Origin: Hydrolagus affinis
Taxonomy: Eukaryota
Length of the DNA: 64,000 nt
Reading direction: 5' to 3'
Assembly: GCA_012026655.1 (NCBI GenBank)
Contig: JAAILG010000248.1
Location: 1 to 64,000, forward strand
Positions 54,301 through 60,300 of this stretch are shown piece by piece; positions within the stretch are counted from its first letter, which is position 1; each line of letters starts with the position of its first letter. Position numbers: made by a program.

Positions 54301-57300
54301 GTCTGTAGATAATCTTTATATAAGAAAAACAATTGGTTCAATGTATATAGTTGCATATTTGAGGCAGAGTGTGTAGTGTACCAACCATTTCTTATCATAA
54401 TGTGTTGTACTCAAGCTCTTTGTCAGAAAGGATATTGCACATCCTCACCCTTTTGTTGTAGGACAACCATTATTTTTTTTCCAAAAGGACAAAATAATGA
54501 ATGCTTCATCTTTGACAGATTAGATATTCTCAGCCTATTACACAATGCAAATCAATTTAATGTTGCAATGAAAAGACAAAAGGGTTGGTATTCTGGAGAG
54601 ATGAGGTCAAATGCAACATGGCTGGTAATCCCAGGCAGGCCTATAATAATGGAAGGCACTGTTTATGGTTAATCAGCCTGTCTGCCTTATCAATGAGAAA
54701 TGGATATGCCCTTTGAGCCAAGGCCTAAACTGGAACGGGTGGAAACTGGAAACTAAGCTGAGTAGTTATCATTCCCTTTAAGCAGTCTTTATTTTCTTTT
54801 TACATGAGGACATAGGATATTTAACCATTTACTTCCTTTCAGAAAGCAGCACAGTTATTCCATACAGAACAATGTGTGAATTTAGACATGAGGTCTGTGC
54901 CAGTCCGTGCATCAAAACCTGCAGTGATCCCCATGGTACAGCATGCAAGTTTCTACCACTGTAAGTGTCTGAGTGTCTTACTAATGTCAAAAACAACAAC
55001 AATTTGCATTTGTATAGCACCTTTCACGTCGGGAGGATGTCCCTATACATTTCGCACTATCGGGAATCAAACCCAGGTCTCTCACTTGCAAGGCCAGTGG
55101 TCTAACTACTGAGCTACAGGACTCCACAATATACAGTAATATGAAATGTAGTGACTGTGTAATTTGTGGGGAAACACGGCAGCCAATTCGCTCACATCAA
55201 AATCCTAGAAGTACAGTTGTAGGATTGAATGACTGAATTCAATTGAATTGAATAATGATGGCGATTGTTGGCCGGTGCACTCTGCCCCAAACCAGAAATC
55301 ACATGTCATCATTCTTTTCAGCTCCTTTAAGGTGACTGAGGACAAAAAACGTAGGCTGTGGATCTCTGCACAGCTGCTGTCAATGTGGGTCAGCAGCACA
55401 TATGAGTGGTCCCACATTCATGACTAGCCTTGCTAACTTGTCATTGCCCTTTGGACCCACTGGGTGGCACCCTTTGTTACCATGAGGAACTTCAACTGAT
55501 AGCCTAGCTTTTTTATTCACTTTAGTAGTGAAATTTGAGCGATAGTTAAAGCTGGGATTCAGATTATGGCTCTGGTCTATTCTTCACATACTACCTTGTG
55601 TCAGCCAAGCACTTTTGCCTTTGAGTCCGGTGATTGTGGGTTCAAACTGCACTAGAACATGATTGTATGAAATAATGGGCTGTAGGCTTTTCTCCGCTCC
55701 AACCTCCTATTCTAATGAGTTCCCAATAATCCTCACTTCTGTGAAGCGGGTGCCTGACCATAGCAGGGAGAGAAGGAAAATCAGCACCATAGTTGTCCCA
55801 GAGCCAGTTATTGAAGGGAGCTTCTCCCAAGTGTCCTTGCAAACAATCCTCCAGATAAAATTGGTCACTCACCCCATGGCTTTTTGGGACATTGCTGTGT
55901 ACAAATTGACTACTGTGTTCACCTATAAGTACACAATCACTACACTTTACAGAAAATACTGTAACAAACTTTAAAGCATCTTCCCAATGTGAAAGTCAAA
56001 GGTGATTATTGTTTATTATTCTACTTTTGACTGGATCATAACACCATCAGCATTGGCTGGGAGCAGATGGACTCCTGCCTGTCCTCTCAGTTGCAGGCAA
56101 ACTCTGGATCAGAGAGATTTTCAAATAAACTGGAAGGATGTGAATTCCAGGAGAGAAGCAAACCTTAATATATCTTATGTTATATTAACATAATATGTTA
56201 ATATATCTTATGTTTTTCCTCTCTTTTTCTCACGTAGAGTAGAGGGCTGCATGGCACATTGTCCAAAGCTCATGCTTCTTGATGAAGTCACTCGTAGATG
56301 TGTTCATCCAGAGGACTGTGAGTGTCTTTTCCTTCAAATCCTTTTGTATTTTCTGTTGCTGACTAAGATGAGGGAAGCAACGGCTGGAGAGTATCTGCCA
56401 GTGATAGTACTGTACCTAATATTCATTAGCCTGTTATCCTGCTGATCAGCAAAATTATACTTTAATTTCAGTCTCCCCTTATCTTTGAGCCAGAAAATGG
56501 CACTTACTGTACTCCATCCATCAAGACTGAATTGCCTAAGAAGTTGTCAGTTGCTTTTATTCAATTTGAAATGCTGGGTATTCTGGTCTGTTAAATAATA
56601 TGAAAGAAAAATTCGACAGAATTATGAAATACTTAAGAGTATTTATGGTCTTGTTCCATACCTAAACAGATCCCTAGAAATCAGGTTAAAAAAGTACTAC
56701 TGTATAGCTAACAAGAAACAGGTTGGCTACATTAAGGGAATAAACCATTAGAATTCTGGTCCTTATTTGCAAAAGAACAACAATTTTCAGCTTTTTGATT
56801 TAACAATGTGTAGATTTTATATTAACCTACAGGGCAGGAGATTCCAGGTTTGTTCCTAGTCAGTGATGAGATTGCTGATCTCAACCCTGGCAGTACAATT
56901 GAGCTTAGTGCTTCTGGTTAAGGGATAAAAATATAGTATGGCTCCTCCTAATCACAACCGAGTGACCTTATAGGGAGAATGCAACTTGGATTAGCTGTGA
57001 GGTACAGTCAAGGCTCACGATTAAAATGGCCACCTGAGTGAGCAAACACAGGGAGAGCTGCACCAGTACAACCAATAGAGGGAAACATCCCAATAAAATT
57101 GGAAAGAGAAACAATAATGGCCCATTTAGTGGGTTTAACAGGAAAAAAAGATAATACTGATAATCATGATGCAAAATAAATCATTCATTGACTGCATACT
57201 TTATTGCAGGTATCAATATAACTGCTACAGAATTACCTTATCTTCCAACACCTGGTAAAACATCCATTGCAACAGAAGCAGCAGACAGTCCTCCTGCTAT

Positions 57301-60300
57301 GTCAGTGACTCCAACAACATTACGGGTGACAGAAAAATCCACAACATTAACGCCAGCTAGGACAACTTTGTTACCCCAACTGACTACTCCTCTGGCATCT
57401 ACAGCATCCTCAGCTAGGACCACAATTACAGCTGTCACCACAGGTTCCCGCCAGTTTCCTTCAAGTGCATTAACAACAGAGGTCACCGGCTCCACTACAT
57501 CTCTCGCAACAGCTAATATAACATCAACCCTGACAACACCCGCTGTACCTCTGCTCACCACCACAACTTCTGTTGGAATTACTCCCATTTCTGCAACTCA
57601 AGAAACACTCTCTCCCTCAGTTACTGCTTCACGCAGTGCTTTTTCAACAACAGCAATTACCAAAAGACCTGAAGCCACTGGCTACTCCTCACAGAGCCCA
57701 CATGTTGGCACGTCATCTGCTAGTCCACACAAAACTGTATCAGTGACTGTTGGACAACCTTTCACTGTAACCCAGTTGGTAACTACAGCACAGGTCGTGC
57801 AGTCAAGGTATGACACCTCCCCTGGAAGTGTAGAATCCGCAACAGTGAAACGGACAACTGTGGCAACTACCAAACCTGCAAAGCTATTCACCGAGCTGAG
57901 GACGACGCTCACTAAACTAACAGAGTCGACAATTGCAACTGCAGCAGGATCCAAAGAGACACAGGACACTTGGCACACCAGAGCGCCGTTCGTGGCTTCA
58001 CCTGGACTTTTCTTCACATCAACCAGTGCTTCTTTGACTCCCCAGATAAGTGGCACTGATGCGACAGCGAAGCCAACTGAATTTGCCACATCTTTGACAG
58101 TGGCACCTACACCAGAACCCACCATGTATCCTGTACCACTCACAGCTAGTTCTACTTCAGCCACAACTTTTGAGGAGAAAGCCACACCAGCAGCAATCTC
58201 CACATCAACGTCCTCCCCACCAGCTAATTTGACTTCCTCATCGAATAGAACAGTTATCCCTGAGATGCCTTTGCCTTTTCCTCCCACTCTGACTTCTCCC
58301 ACTTCTGAGGCTCCAACGGCTGCTCAACCAGAAAGTGCAATTCCTTTTGACACCTCAGTTACACTCTCTGATTCTCAAACCGCAGCATCTTCAGCAACAC
58401 TCTCTGCCCCGCAATGCATAGTACGAACATTTGTTTATTTAAAAAGAATGTGTAACTTTGAAGACAACATGTGATCGTAATTTATTTTAAAACTTTTAAA
58501 ACACCTGCACATTATGGCTATTGACTGCAATAGAGCTTTTGAAAAGACGTTATATTTCATATTTTTTCCTTGATGTTATTATTGCTATCTATCATTAGTC
58601 TATGTCTACCTAGCTCAGTTGGTAGCACTCTTATTTCTGAATCAGAAGGTTGTGGGTTCAAGCCCTTGCCACAATTCAAAAAGAAGAGAATTTCTCCCAG
58701 CGTCCTAGCCAATATCCCCAAATAAACTTGGAATTTTACTTAAAAGACTATCTGTGGGACATTGCTGTATTCAGATTGGCTGCTGTGTTCCCCCACAAAA
58801 TACACGATTATTACACTTTACAGTATATCCCGTGAAGCACTTTGAGATGTCCCTTAAAGTGAAAGCAATATATGAAATTCAAATTGAAGGATTATTATTA
58901 TCTAATAATATTATTATTATCTAATAATAATATTATTAATACTTTAAGAGGTTGAGACTCTCTGGACTGCAGATTATTCCAATTCTGCTAGCAATGTCAC
59001 TCACTCTTTGACCAGGATTTAAGACAGGCATTGCGACAGGTTGAATATATAATCCAAGAATTTATTTCACAATTTTGTTGTTTTTAGTTGGTGGAAAATA
59101 TTAATAATAAAAAATATTCATTGTGTATTGTAGACGATCTATTGTCATCATAATATCTCAAAGCACTTCACACGATTTTACTGTGAACTGTAGTGATTAT
59201 GTATTTGTAGGCTAATGTGGCAGCCAATTTGCATGCAACAAGGTCCCACAAATAGCCATAGATGATCAATTCTATGAGTAAGTGCAGTACTGCATGTTTG
59301 CATGTTCTGATGCATTTGTTTTGTATCATTTCTTTGCAGTGTGCTTTTAATGTGACACAGCCAAGCTGCGGCTTTCTGGGGATGCCTCTCCAAGTAAACA
59401 ATGACAAGTGCTGTCCTCGGTGGGAATGCCCATGTGAGTTTGGGTGTTACATTTAGGTTCTCGTACTACTTCACAACAAGTGGATGGTTAATACTATTGT
59501 ACCATTGTTCTAAAATGTGATACCTACTTTGAAATGGCAGAGCACCAACGATAGACATGGACAAACCTCTTACTGATTGAGTTTTTCACTTGTCTTGTGT
59601 ACTTGTCTTGAGTTCTGTTTCCTTCTCAGTTCACTGTCTTGCTGTACTGTCTCTGATCTCCTTACTATCTGATTCTCCACTTTATTTCTCGATCCTGTAA
59701 CTTTGTTTGTTGTGTTTCCTCATCGGTCTTTATCTTCTGTCTTTAACAGCCTTCCCCCTTCCTTGCTTTAAGTCCACAGTTTCTGTAGCAGTGGCAACGT
59801 GAAGTGTTTGGAGAGCACATATCCTCATGAATTTGTCACGAGTGATCCCAATAATGGTTTTCTTCTCTCCAAATATAAAGTACTAAATAAAATCTGTGTT
59901 TTTACCACGCCACCTTAACATTCTTGTAGTATACCTGTTTTAATAGTTGGTTTAACAGTAGTGTTATTGAAATATTTAACTTGATAGTATATGCAGGCAA
60001 TGTGATGCACATATATTGTTTTCATTTTTGTGATTTGGAGAATATTGTCAGAATATGTGAAGTACTGTAGTTCCCAATCATTTCAATGTGCTATATAACA
60101 CAATCTGATACAATCTTTATTGTTTTACATCACGTCAGGTCGCTGTTCAATGTTTTCTGACCTGCACATAATCACATTTGACGGCAATGATGTGGGAGTG
60201 TATGATGCTGCAGCCTATGTACTGACCCTGTTGCCACAAGAAACTATTGTTGCTCACATTGAACAGTGCTCCACACGTGAGGTAATTTATGGCTTTTCCA

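What the first reader, a model, noticed from the sequence alone, without database searches (positions are those of the whole stretch)
57210..58420. OTOGL carrying a large otogelin-type mucin (TSP) domain
Seen: a single 1211-nt in-frame exon encodes ~403 aa dominated by T/S/P/A, non-tandem, with Cys only at the edges, between the post-AbfB Cys region and VWD4. Knowledge (recalled): a long TSP domain here characterises OTOG, while mammalian OTOGL has only a few dozen such residues. This gene is OTOGL by N-terminus and VWD motifs. Inference: the pre-duplication ancestor had the mucin domain and amniote OTOGL lost it, so this fish may make a second heavily O-glycosylated gel-forming otogelin (cupula, otolithic membrane, possibly lateral line or ampullary gel).
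Basis: partly seen in the sequence, partly recalled or inferred. Interest (0 to 1): 0.7.

Follow-up and report, generated by a model that had tools for sequence, protein, structure and literature searches.

The report
Mucin-like linker exon in otogelin-family gene
One long exon of a fish inner-ear gel-protein gene (otogelin family) encodes a 403-residue threonine/serine/proline-rich, probably sugar-coated spacer; it is real but of a known kind, and whether the gene is OTOGL or OTOG could not be settled.

Summary
Window 57210-58420 (+) is a 1211-nt exon: 403 codons, T 23%, S 14%, A 12%, P 10%, non-repetitive, with Cys only at the 5' split codon and at residue 402. It is the longest open frame in the window, and 0 of 5000 dinucleotide shuffles stay open. 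Skipping it would shift the frame.

Exon-by-exon Pfam scans place it in an otogelin-family gene: four VWD-C8(-TIL) units plus an AbfB domain. It lies between a TIL-like exon pair and VWD4. Mouse otogelin has its 586-aa TSP domain at that position.

The OTOGL assignment is not proven, because no vertebrate reference sequences were available. An EGF-like domain is also annotated in human OTOG (position not given), so it does not discriminate. Published human OTOGL variant coordinates do match the window's exon sizes and phases: 118 and 80 nt exactly, 139 against 142 nt, and two Cys positions. By that arithmetic human OTOGL has about 82 codons where this gene has 403. OTOG exon sizes were not available for the same test.

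Verdict: a real mucin-like linker exon of a known kind, probably in OTOGL (about 0.6). The claims of an ancestral domain and amniote loss are untested. Interest is low to moderate.

The parts
57210..58420 (+). TSP (Thr/Ser/Pro/Ala-rich) exon: 1211 nt, one base of its first codon comes from the previous exon, ends on a codon boundary, 403 full codons
   Evidence: open frame; 0/5000 shuffles open; non-repetitive; no confident fold, mean pLDDT 36.7; no Pfam family
54843..54960 (+). Cys-rich (TIL-like) exon X, 118 nt, takes 1 base from the previous exon and leaves 2. Same length and phases as human OTOGL c.4055-4172. TGC at 54920-54922 sits at the offset of human Cys1378
   Evidence: sequence, splice sites; published variant coordinates; no Pfam hit for the ORF at E<=0.1
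56238..56317 (+). Cys-rich exon Y, 80 nt, donor ACT|GTGAGT, leaves 1 base (T) that forms the Cys codon with the first GT of the TSP exon. Same length as human OTOGL c.4173-4252. The acceptor could also be 2 nt downstream (56240)
59340..59433 (+). Short Cys-rich exon after the TSP exon (94 nt, starts on a codon boundary, leaves 1 base), CAFNVTQPSCGFLGMPLQVNNDKCCPRWECP
   Evidence: donor CAT|GTGAGT, 8 of 9; no PDB or Pfam match on its own
60139..60281 (+). First VWD4 exon (143 nt)
   Evidence: Pfam VWD profile positions 1-53, E 0.011, below the curated cut-off, on the ORF; splice sites
60748..60837 (+). Second VWD4 exon (90 nt). The acceptor is a GAG and is less certain (alternative 60758 with the donor of the previous exon at 60276)
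61671..61860 (+). VWD4 exon ending in the GLCG motif (190 nt)
   Evidence: Pfam VWD profile positions 78-140, E 4.6e-4
62242..62462 (+). End of VWD4 and start of C8-4 (221 nt). Ends C-H-Q-Q|GTAAGA, like human OTOGL Cys1743 plus 3 codons to c.5238
63524..63662 (+). C8-4 exon (139 nt, starts on a codon boundary, leaves 1 base; human OTOGL c.5239-5380 is 142 nt with the same phases)
   Evidence: Pfam C8 E 1.3e-7
47882..48160 (+). AbfB-domain exon, the family hallmark
   Evidence: Pfam AbfB E 1e-5, 26.1 bits, above the cut-off of 22.8; ESM Atlas first hits are AbfB clusters at 0.96; boundaries
46852..46878 (+). 27-nt micro-exon (x)FDCEYYNR(G), counterpart of zebrafish otog exon 28 (YDCEYYNKA)
   Evidence: PMC4360185 passages
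17864..44929 (+). Exons of VWD1-C8-TIL, VWD2-C8-TIL, a further TIL, and VWD3-C8 (N-terminal D1-D3 part of the gene)
   Evidence: Pfam exon by exon: VWD 17864/19650, C8 22057, TIL 23394, VWD 24908/26590, C8 28351, TIL 29400 and 31818, VWD 33634/42679, C8 43549/44744. The C8 exon at 28351 matches VWF residues 578-644 best
17117..17476 (+). Candidate first coding exon (ATG 17117, hydrophobic start) and the exon with an EGF-like six-Cys pattern just before VWD1
   Evidence: No Pfam EGF hit at E<=0.1, so the EGF-like label rests on the Cys spacing seen in the sequence

Best explanation
Window 57210-58420 is a constitutive coding exon of an otogelin-family gene on the + strand. The gene has an EGF-like Cys pattern, three N-terminal VWD-C8(-TIL) units, an AbfB domain, a TIL-like exon pair, this exon, and then a fourth VWD-C8 unit.

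The exon encodes a 403-residue, non-repetitive, almost Cys-free stretch rich in Thr, Ser, Ala and Pro, with no predicted fold. It lies where mouse otogelin has its TSP domain and where gel-forming mucins have their PTS domain: between the N-terminal multimerising D1-D3 part and the C-terminal D4 part.

Inferred mechanism: it is a flexible linker that is glycosylated on many of its 152 Ser/Thr (plus 4 N-x-S/T sequons). Glycosylation would stiffen it, hydrate it and protect it from proteases. It would then hold the disulfide-linked ends apart and help the polymer form a water-rich gel over hair-cell epithelia.

The paralogue is most likely OTOGL (my estimate about 0.6), because exon sizes and phases on both sides match published human OTOGL exon boundaries. 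On that reading the fish protein has 403 residues where human OTOGL has about 82.

Shown here: the exon, its frame, its composition, the domain order, and the exon-size match. Inferred: glycosylation, gel function, tissue, and orthology.
For: Coding:
- 0 stops in frame against 20 and 18 in the other frames.
- 0 of 5000 dinucleotide shuffles stay open.
- It is the longest open run in the window.

Constitutive:
- The previous exon leaves 1 base and the next exon needs none, so skipping shifts the frame.
- The best internal GT (AAG|GTATGA, exon end 57807, 7 of 9) would be out of frame.

Family:
- Four VWD sets with C8 and TIL.
- AbfB at E 1e-5 and Atlas score 0.96.
- Lang et al. 2016 name AbfB as the mark of otogelin among multi-VWD proteins (PMC4948705 passage).
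- The 27-nt micro-exon matches zebrafish otog exon 28.

Position: mouse otogelin TSP domain is aa 1451-2036, between VWFD3 and VWFD4 (PMC4659790).

Linker character:
- No Pfam family.
- AlphaFold2 single-sequence mean pLDDT 36.7; 383 of 403 residues below 50.
- Atlas nearest rows are mucin-like fragments of a viral G glycoprotein at only 0.80, which reflects composition, not kinship.
- P is 10.4%. T+S is 40-47% in the first 150 residues.

OTOGL collinearity (window exon lengths against published variant names in PMC8602250 and PMC11854685):
- Human boundaries c.4054, c.4172 and c.4252 give exons of 118 and 80 nt. Window exons are 118 nt (54843-54960) and 80 nt (56238-56317) with the same phases.
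- The Cys1378 codon offset falls on TGC at 54920-54922.
- The exon ending at c.5238 has Cys1743 four codons from its end. The window exon 62242-62462 ends C-H-Q-Q.
- The next human exon is 142 nt and the window's is 139 nt, with the same phases.
- c.4863 is listed in exon 42, which fits the window exon 61671-61860.
Against: - No alignment or tree against OTOG or OTOGL was possible, and OTOG exon sizes were not available. The exon-size match therefore shows collinearity with OTOGL but does not exclude OTOG.
- The human c. numbers come from different reports and transcript versions (proteins of 2343, 2344 and 2353 aa are quoted), so a 3-nt offset is possible.
- By exon numbers, human OTOGL has 8 exons between c.4253 and c.5238, against 6 here. 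The single large exon is not the human OTOGL structure. From memory, not checked, it resembles the single large TSP exon of OTOG.
- The donor ATA|GTACGA is weak (5 of 9). In-frame internal GTs exist (exon ends 57778 and 57325, 6 of 9 each), so shorter isoforms cannot be excluded.
- T+S at 37.7% is just under the typical 40% of PTS domains. Otogelins are reported as mainly N-glycosylated and as lacking an extensive O-glycosylated central domain (PMC5789918).
- The low pLDDT comes from a single-sequence fold, which is often poor anyway.
- The exons between AbfB (48160) and 54843 were not resolved.
- The only neighbour in the window, RPS16, gives no synteny support for OTOGL.
Confidence: 0.6

Rival explanations
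1. The gene is the OTOG orthologue itself. The exon is then simply the long-known otogelin TSP domain, and nothing about OTOGL evolution follows.
For: - A single long TSP domain between VWFD3 and VWFD4 is the documented hallmark of otogelin (PMC4659790).
- The 27-nt micro-exon is the counterpart of zebrafish otog exon 28, with 6 of 8 full codons identical.
- An EGF-like domain is annotated in human OTOG too.
- By exon numbers, human OTOGL has three small exons where this gene has one large exon.
Against: - Exon lengths of 118 and 80 nt, 139 against 142 nt, and two Cys offsets fit published human OTOGL coordinates. Paralogues only 33.3% identical would be expected to differ in some of these, though this was not checked for OTOG.
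- The TSP stretch is 403 residues, against 586 in mouse OTOG.
Confidence: 0.25
2. The gene is a third or lineage-specific otogelin-family paralogue, neither OTOG nor OTOGL. It could be a retained whole-genome-duplication copy or a local duplicate that kept or acquired a TSP domain.
For: - The only neighbour in the window is an intron-containing RPS16 gene about 7 kb upstream on the same strand. From memory, that is not a neighbour of OTOG or OTOGL in human.
- The TSP domain combined with OTOGL-like exon sizes is a mixed picture.
Against: - No positive evidence for a third clade.
- One neighbour is weak synteny evidence.
- The papers I read name only otogelin and otogelin-like as family members; Xenopus 'Otogl' (MucXS) is a misnamed mucin.
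Confidence: 0.12
3. Only part of the open frame is used. An internal in-frame donor or acceptor would give a much shorter linker in the main isoform, and the full 403 residues would be rare or tissue-specific.
For: - The annotated donor is weak (5 of 9).
- In-frame internal GTs at exon ends 57778 and 57325 score 6 of 9.
- Internal AGs with pyrimidine tracts exist, for example at 58310 and 58046.
Against: - The frame stays open for all 1211 nt and closes 51 nt after the donor, which is hard to explain unless the whole stretch is translated.
- The strongest internal GT (exon end 57807) is out of frame.
- The composition is even along the exon.
Confidence: 0.12
4. The open frame is not a real exon but a compositional accident or repeat-derived sequence inside an intron.
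For: - Low-complexity composition.
- An antisense open frame of 213 codons also exists.
- No Pfam family.
Against: - 0 of 5000 shuffles stay open.
- Splice phases fit both neighbours exactly.
- No similarity to the rest of the window or to its interspersed repeats (best blastn E 0.22).
- The position is identical to a known TSP domain.
- The antisense frame follows from C-rich second codon positions.
Confidence: 0.02

Closest known systems
Otogelin (OTOG) TSP domain, mouse aa 1451-2036
   Same: - Same gene family by architecture (VWD-C8-TIL units plus AbfB).
- Same position between VWFD3 and VWFD4.
- Thr/Ser/Pro-rich.
- From memory, not checked: also encoded by one large exon.
   Different: - 403 residues against 586.
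- No sequence comparison was possible.
- Flanking exon sizes match published OTOGL coordinates; OTOG sizes are unknown to me.
- Otogelin is reported as mainly N-glycosylated (PMC5789918 passage).
Human otogelin-like (OTOGL), 2344 aa, 58-59 exons
   Same: - Domain list: EGF-like, four vWD, C8, TIL, AbfB (the CTCK lies beyond the window).
- Exon sizes and phases on both sides of the TSP exon (118, 80, 139/142 nt).
- Cys at the offsets of Cys1378 and Cys1743.
- An acidic residue (Asp) at the predicted place of Glu1522.
   Different: - By arithmetic, human OTOGL has about 248 nt (about 82 codons) in three exons where this gene has 1211 nt in one exon.
- No TSP domain is listed for human OTOGL in the papers read.
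PTS domains of gel-forming mucins (MUC2, MUC5AC/B)
   Same: - Lies between the D3 and D4 assemblies.
- Rich in Thr/Ser/Pro, free of Cys, no fold.
- Expected to carry O-glycans and act as an extended spacer.
   Different: - Much shorter.
- Not tandemly repeated, and no CysD modules.
- T+S is 37.7%, just under the typical 40%.
- The gene carries AbfB, which places it with otogelins and not with mucins (PMC4948705).
Xenopus tropicalis 'Otogl' = MucXS skin mucin
   Same: - Carries the name 'otogelin-like'.
- Has a large PTS-rich centre.
- Shown to be O-glycosylated and gel-forming.
   Different: [quoted passage not shown]
- It is not expressed in the ear.
- Its authors call it misnamed (PMC5789918).
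- It is no precedent for a true OTOGL with a TSP domain.

Membership tests
Otogelin family (OTOG/OTOGL) | Several VWD-C8-TIL units: three N-terminal and one after the central region | tested here: met
   Pfam exon by exon: VWD at 17864/19650, 24908/26590, 33634/42679 and 60099/61671, with C8 and TIL hits between them
Otogelin family (OTOG/OTOGL) | AbfB domain between the third and fourth VWD | tested here: met
   PF05270 E 1e-5, 26.1 bits against a cut-off of 22.8, at 47863-48243; Atlas AbfB clusters at 0.96. AbfB is named as the family mark in PMC4948705
Otogelin family (OTOG/OTOGL) | C-terminal cystine knot | not testable with these tools
   The window ends at 64000, just after the C8 of the fourth unit
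Otogelin family (OTOG/OTOGL) | N-terminal EGF-like domain | tested here: inconclusive
   A six-Cys EGF-like spacing is visible in ORF 17192-17476, but there is no Pfam EGF hit at E<=0.1
OTOGL orthologue | Groups with OTOGL rather than OTOG in a tree or by reciprocal best hits | not testable with these tools
PDB holds no otogelin
OTOGL orthologue | Exon sizes and phases collinear with human OTOGL | tested here: met
   118 and 80 nt are exact; 139 against 142 nt; Cys1378 and Cys1743 offsets match. This is not a test against OTOG, whose exon sizes I lack
OTOGL orthologue | Conserved neighbours of OTOGL | tested here: inconclusive
   The only neighbour in the window is RPS16, upstream. The expected neighbours are known to me from memory only
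OTOG orthologue | Long TSP domain between VWFD3 and VWFD4 | tested here: met
   403 residues at this position; mouse domain aa 1451-2036
OTOG orthologue | Groups with OTOG in a tree | not testable with these tools
   Same reason as for OTOGL
Mucin-type PTS domain | T+S at least about 40% and P above 5% | tested here: inconclusive
   T+S is 37.7% overall, 40-47% in the first 150 residues and 35-39% in the rest. P is 10.4%. The criterion is from a PMC4948705 passage
Mucin-type PTS domain | Dense O-glycosylation | not testable with these tools
   Needs protein chemistry. 152 Ser/Thr are available, and the longest stretch without Ser or Thr is 11 residues
Mucin-type PTS domain | Tandem repeats (frequent in mucins but not required) | tested here: not met
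   TRF finds none; k-mer recurrence is no higher than in shuffles

The most novel reading that the evidence does not exclude
The gene is the true OTOGL orthologue, or a third otogelin-family copy lying next to RPS16, and still carries a full single-exon TSP domain. This would show that the mucin-like linker predates the OTOG/OTOGL split. In the lineage leading to mammals it would have been cut down to about 80 residues spread over three small exons. This fish would then build its ear gels, and perhaps other hair-cell gels, from two TSP-bearing otogelins.
Probability: 0.4. Interest if true: 0.4.

Novelty: new member of a known kind. Interest (0 to 1): 0.27.

Why it matters
Otogelin and otogelin-like are deafness and balance genes. 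Together they form the links and gels that couple hair bundles to the tectorial, otoconial and cupular membranes.

If a non-mammalian OTOGL keeps a 400-residue mucin-like linker that mammals reduced to about 80 residues, then domain loss, not only sequence drift, separates the two paralogues. The material properties of fish ear gels (hydration, spacing, protease resistance) would then rest on two such linkers.

This is a modest point of comparative biology. It is easy to settle with public annotations and RNA-seq. It opens no new mechanism.

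Tried and rejected
I then scanned 40 stop-free ORFs exon by exon.
- ESM Atlas with the TSP exon gave only compositional look-alikes at 0.80. With the AbfB exon it confirmed AbfB but gave no otogelin cluster, so it was of no use for the paralogue question.
- PDB sequence searches with four exons found VWF, MUC2, MUC5AC/B and FCGBP, or nothing, and no otogelin entry.
- Rfam at gathering thresholds gave 0 matches in the window.
- The EGF-like N-terminus was dropped as an OTOGL marker, because OTOG is annotated with an EGF-like domain too.
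- The zebrafish otog micro-exon motif was found in the window. It is not diagnostic without the OTOGL counterpart.
- Residue-level checks against other published human OTOGL variants (Gly1675, Asp1680, Pro1622, residue 1611) were off by 2 or more codons, in inconsistent directions. I do not use them.
- A simple phase-constrained scan did not resolve the exons between AbfB and 54843.
- Three key papers are not held: Yariz 2012 (PMC3487139), Avan 2019 (PMC6926040) and Cohen-Salmon 1997.
- One literature search returned nothing relevant.
- No paper found or 52 describes a TSP domain in a non-mammalian OTOGL. That is a statement about those six searches only. Supplements were not consulted.

Full report
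**Observation**

The stretch 57210-58420 on the + strand has an acceptor tttattgcag|GT and a donor ATA|GTACGA. It lies inside an open run of 434 codons, 57170-58471. The exon is 1211 nt. Its first two bases complete a codon whose first base is the T at 56317, the last base of the previous exon (donor ACT|GTGAGT). The junction codon is therefore TGT, Cys. After it come 403 full codons, and the exon ends on a codon boundary.

The peptide has T 94, S 58, A 48 and P 42 of 403 residues. T+S+P+A is 60.0% and T+S is 37.7%. There is one Cys, at residue 402, and there are four N-x-S/T sequons. Acidic residues number 23 and basic residues 22. Tandem Repeats Finder finds no array in the exon. No 5-mer peptide recurs, and 4-mers recur no more often than in shuffled peptides. 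So the description is right, including 'Cys only at the edges'.

**Is it more than chance?**

- The coding frame has no stop. The other two + frames have 20 and 18.
- None of 5000 dinucleotide-preserving shuffles stays open (mean 14.1 stops).
- The 434-codon run is the longest in all six frames of the 64-kb window. The runner-up, 213 codons, is its own antisense. That antisense frame follows from second codon positions being 58% C.
- The exon has no significant similarity to anything else in the window, including its interspersed repeats (best blastn E 0.22).

**Splicing logic**

The previous exon (56238-56317) leaves one base. The next exon (59340-59433; acceptor tcatttctttgcag|TGT, donor CAT|GTGAGT) starts on a codon boundary. 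Skipping the TSP exon would therefore shift the frame, so the exon should be constitutive.

Its donor is weak, matching 5 of 9 consensus positions. Among 46 GT sites in the exon, the best (AAG|GTATGA, exon end 57807, 7 of 9) would be out of frame. Two in-frame GTs (exon ends 57778 and 57325) score 6 of 9. A shorter isoform cannot be excluded without transcripts. Still, a frame kept open for 1.2 kb that closes 51 nt after the donor argues that the whole stretch is translated.

**The gene around it**

I did not build or search a joined spliced model. All searches were exon by exon, and that step is left out on purpose. Pfam scans of 40 stop-free ORFs gave, in order on the + strand:

- VWD (17864, 19650), C8 (22057), TIL (23394)
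- VWD (24908, 26590), C8 (28351), TIL (29400), TIL (31818)
- VWD (33634, 42679), C8 (43549 weak, 44744)
- AbfB (47863-48243; E 1e-5, above the curated cut-off)
- Cys-rich ORFs without a Pfam hit (50380, 54782, 56194)
- the TSP exon (no family)
- a short Cys-rich exon (59340)
- VWD (60099 at E 0.011, 61671 at E 4.6e-4; both below the cut-off singly, covering profile positions 1-53 and 78-140)
- C8 (63305)

The window ends there. The AbfB call is backed by the ESM Atlas (AbfB clusters at 0.96). Lang et al. 2016 state that, among vertebrate multi-VWD proteins, otogelin is the one marked by AbfB (PMC4948705, passages).

A 27-nt micro-exon at 46852-46878, (x)FDCEYYNR(G), is the counterpart of zebrafish otog exon 28, YDCEYYNKA (PMC4360185, passages; window). 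An EGF-like six-Cys pattern lies just before VWD1, and a candidate start codon with a hydrophobic peptide is at 17117.

**What the stretch is like**

- It has no Pfam family.
- A single-sequence AlphaFold2 model has mean pLDDT 36.7, with 383 of 403 residues below 50. This is weak evidence, because single-sequence folds are often poor, but it fits disorder.
- The Atlas gave only mucin-like fragments of a viral attachment glycoprotein, at 0.80. That is a compositional resemblance and no more.
- Lang et al. describe PTS domains as typically at least 40% Thr+Ser and over 5% Pro. This exon has 37.7% and 10.4%. T+S is 40-47% in the first 150 residues and 35-39% further on. It is mucin-like but at the thin end.

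**Known counterpart**

Human OTOGL is given as 2344 aa with 58 exons. Its listed domains are an EGF-like domain, four vWF domains, C8, TIL, AbfB and a cystine knot. It is 33.3% identical to otogelin, and no TSP domain is listed (PMC11854685 and PMC12274630, passages).

Dubaissi et al. 2018 say that otogelins lack the extensive PTS-rich centre of mucins and are mainly N-glycosylated. They also say that the Xenopus 'Otogl' is a misnamed mucin, MucXS (PMC5789918, passages). MucXS is therefore no precedent for a true OTOGL with a TSP domain.

**OTOG or OTOGL?**

This is the crux, and I could not test it directly. The genome collection holds only bacteria and archaea. PDB has no otogelin.

The EGF-like domain does not help. 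UniProt-based figures for human OTOG also show one (PMC11043142 and PMC12193698, legends).

I therefore compared the window's exon lengths with exon boundaries implied by published human OTOGL variant names. No human sequence was used. The variants are c.4032_4054+30del (end of exon 34 of 59, PMC8602250), c.4172+1G>A, c.4252+1G>A (IVS35), c.5238+5G>A (IVS43) and c.5380+3_+6del (PMC11854685 tables). The results:

- They imply human exons of 118 nt (c.4055-4172) and 80 nt (c.4173-4252). The window's two exons before the TSP exon are 54843-54960 (118 nt) and 56238-56317 (80 nt), with the same phases.
- The codon of human Cys1378 falls on TGC at 54920-54922.
- Downstream, the window chain is 94, 143, 90, 190 and 221 nt (59340-59433, 60139-60281, 60748-60837, 61671-61860, 62242-62462).
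- The last of these ends C-H-Q-Q, as human Cys1743 plus three codons reaches c.5238.
- The next window exon, 63524-63662, is 139 nt, starts on a codon boundary and leaves one base. Human c.5239-5380 is 142 nt with the same phases.
- c.4863 is listed in exon 42, which fits 61671-61860.
- The predicted place of Glu1522 is an Asp codon (59403-59405).

If those five downstream exons have the same lengths in human, then 986 - 738 = 248 nt. That is about 82 codons, in exons 36-38 by the published exon numbers, standing in human OTOGL where this gene has 1211 nt in one exon.

Caveats on this arithmetic:

- The numbers come from different reports and transcript versions.
- One exon boundary here (60281/60748) has an alternative that would change the estimate to about 87 codons.
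- Other residue checks (Gly1675, Asp1680, Pro1622) were off by two or more codons.
- I have no OTOG exon sizes, so this shows collinearity with OTOGL and is not a test against OTOG.

I put OTOGL at about 0.6, OTOG at about 0.25 and another paralogue at about 0.12.

**Mechanism (inferred)**

By position and composition the exon should encode a flexible linker. It would join the N-terminal D1-D3 part, which in VWF and mucins drives disulfide multimerisation, to the D4 part and, beyond the window, the cystine-knot part, which drives dimerisation.

With 152 Ser/Thr, no stretch longer than 11 residues without one, and four N-glycan sequons, it is likely to be glycosylated. That would make it extended, hydrated and resistant to proteases, and would add volume and water to the polymer gel.

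That the gel lies over ear maculae, cristae or other hair-cell organs follows from the family's known location, not from anything in the window. A mucin of the lateral-line cupula has been described in zebrafish and is a different protein (PMC11765562, passages). The ampullary gel's mucin-like core protein is not identified in the review I read (PMC10987296, passages).

**Novelty and verdict**

The exon is real, and the family and position are as stated. A TSP domain at this place is a known otogelin feature.

What could be new is its presence, at full length and in one exon, in the OTOGL paralogue. This is likely but unproven here. It is probably visible in existing automatic annotations, which I could not consult.

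None of my six literature searches turned up a description of a TSP domain in a non-mammalian OTOGL. Three key papers are not held, and supplements were not consulted.

I rate it a new member of a known kind, with low to moderate interest.

Noticed in passing
window 6996-10171 (+): A complete, intron-containing ribosomal protein S16 gene lies about 7 kb upstream of the otogelin-family gene on the same strand. Exon-like ORFs encode MPAKGPLQSVQVFGRK (from 6996), then 8206-8409, 9173-9301, about 9856-9975 and 9950-10171. Three of these give Pfam Ribosomal_S9 hits. A GC-rich stretch around 6800-7300 looks like its promoter.
   Followed up: partly
window 58560-58930, with 13 further copies or fragments (e.g. 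857-944, 1525-1672, 7825-8047, 23791-23903, 27420-27528, 42124-42228, 48499-48650, 52385-52511, 55885-55952): An interspersed repeat occurs on both strands at 72-89% identity. One copy sits in the intron right after the TSP exon. From memory it resembles a SINE common in cartilaginous fishes. Rfam found nothing and the taxon was not determined.
   Followed up: partly
window 57682-58323 (-): A 213-codon open frame lies antisense to the TSP exon. It is a by-product of C-rich second codon positions, not a gene.
   Followed up: yes
window 58420/58421: The donor of the long exon is weak (ATA|GTACGA, 5 of 9), while both neighbouring exons have strong GTGAGT donors (7 and 8 of 9). This may hint at regulated or alternative splicing.
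   Followed up: partly
window 48161-54842 (+): The exons between the AbfB exon and the 118-nt exon were not resolved. ORF 50380-50751 has 10 Cys and a good donor at 50679, but its obvious acceptor (50434) does not fit the phase left by the AbfB exon. Other Cys-rich ORFs (51276-51458, 54561-54713) are candidates.
   Followed up: partly
window 5563-5775 (+) and about 5829-6513: ORFs that look like fragments of a retrotransposon reverse transcriptase (YADD motif) and neighbouring Pro/Ser-rich frames. One (5829-6386) had no Pfam hit.
   Followed up: no
window 3500-3600 and 51330-51380: Dinucleotide (TG/CA) microsatellites, seen as CVCVCV runs in the ORF lists.
   Followed up: no
window 10652-10751: A run of 100 N between RPS16 and the otogelin-family gene. 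It was left as it is.
   Followed up: no
window 34000-41400 (+): A long intron of about 7 kb inside VWD3, between the exons at 33634-33849 and 41495-41701. It is full of repeat-like ORFs, and middle VWD3 exons there were not located.
   Followed up: no
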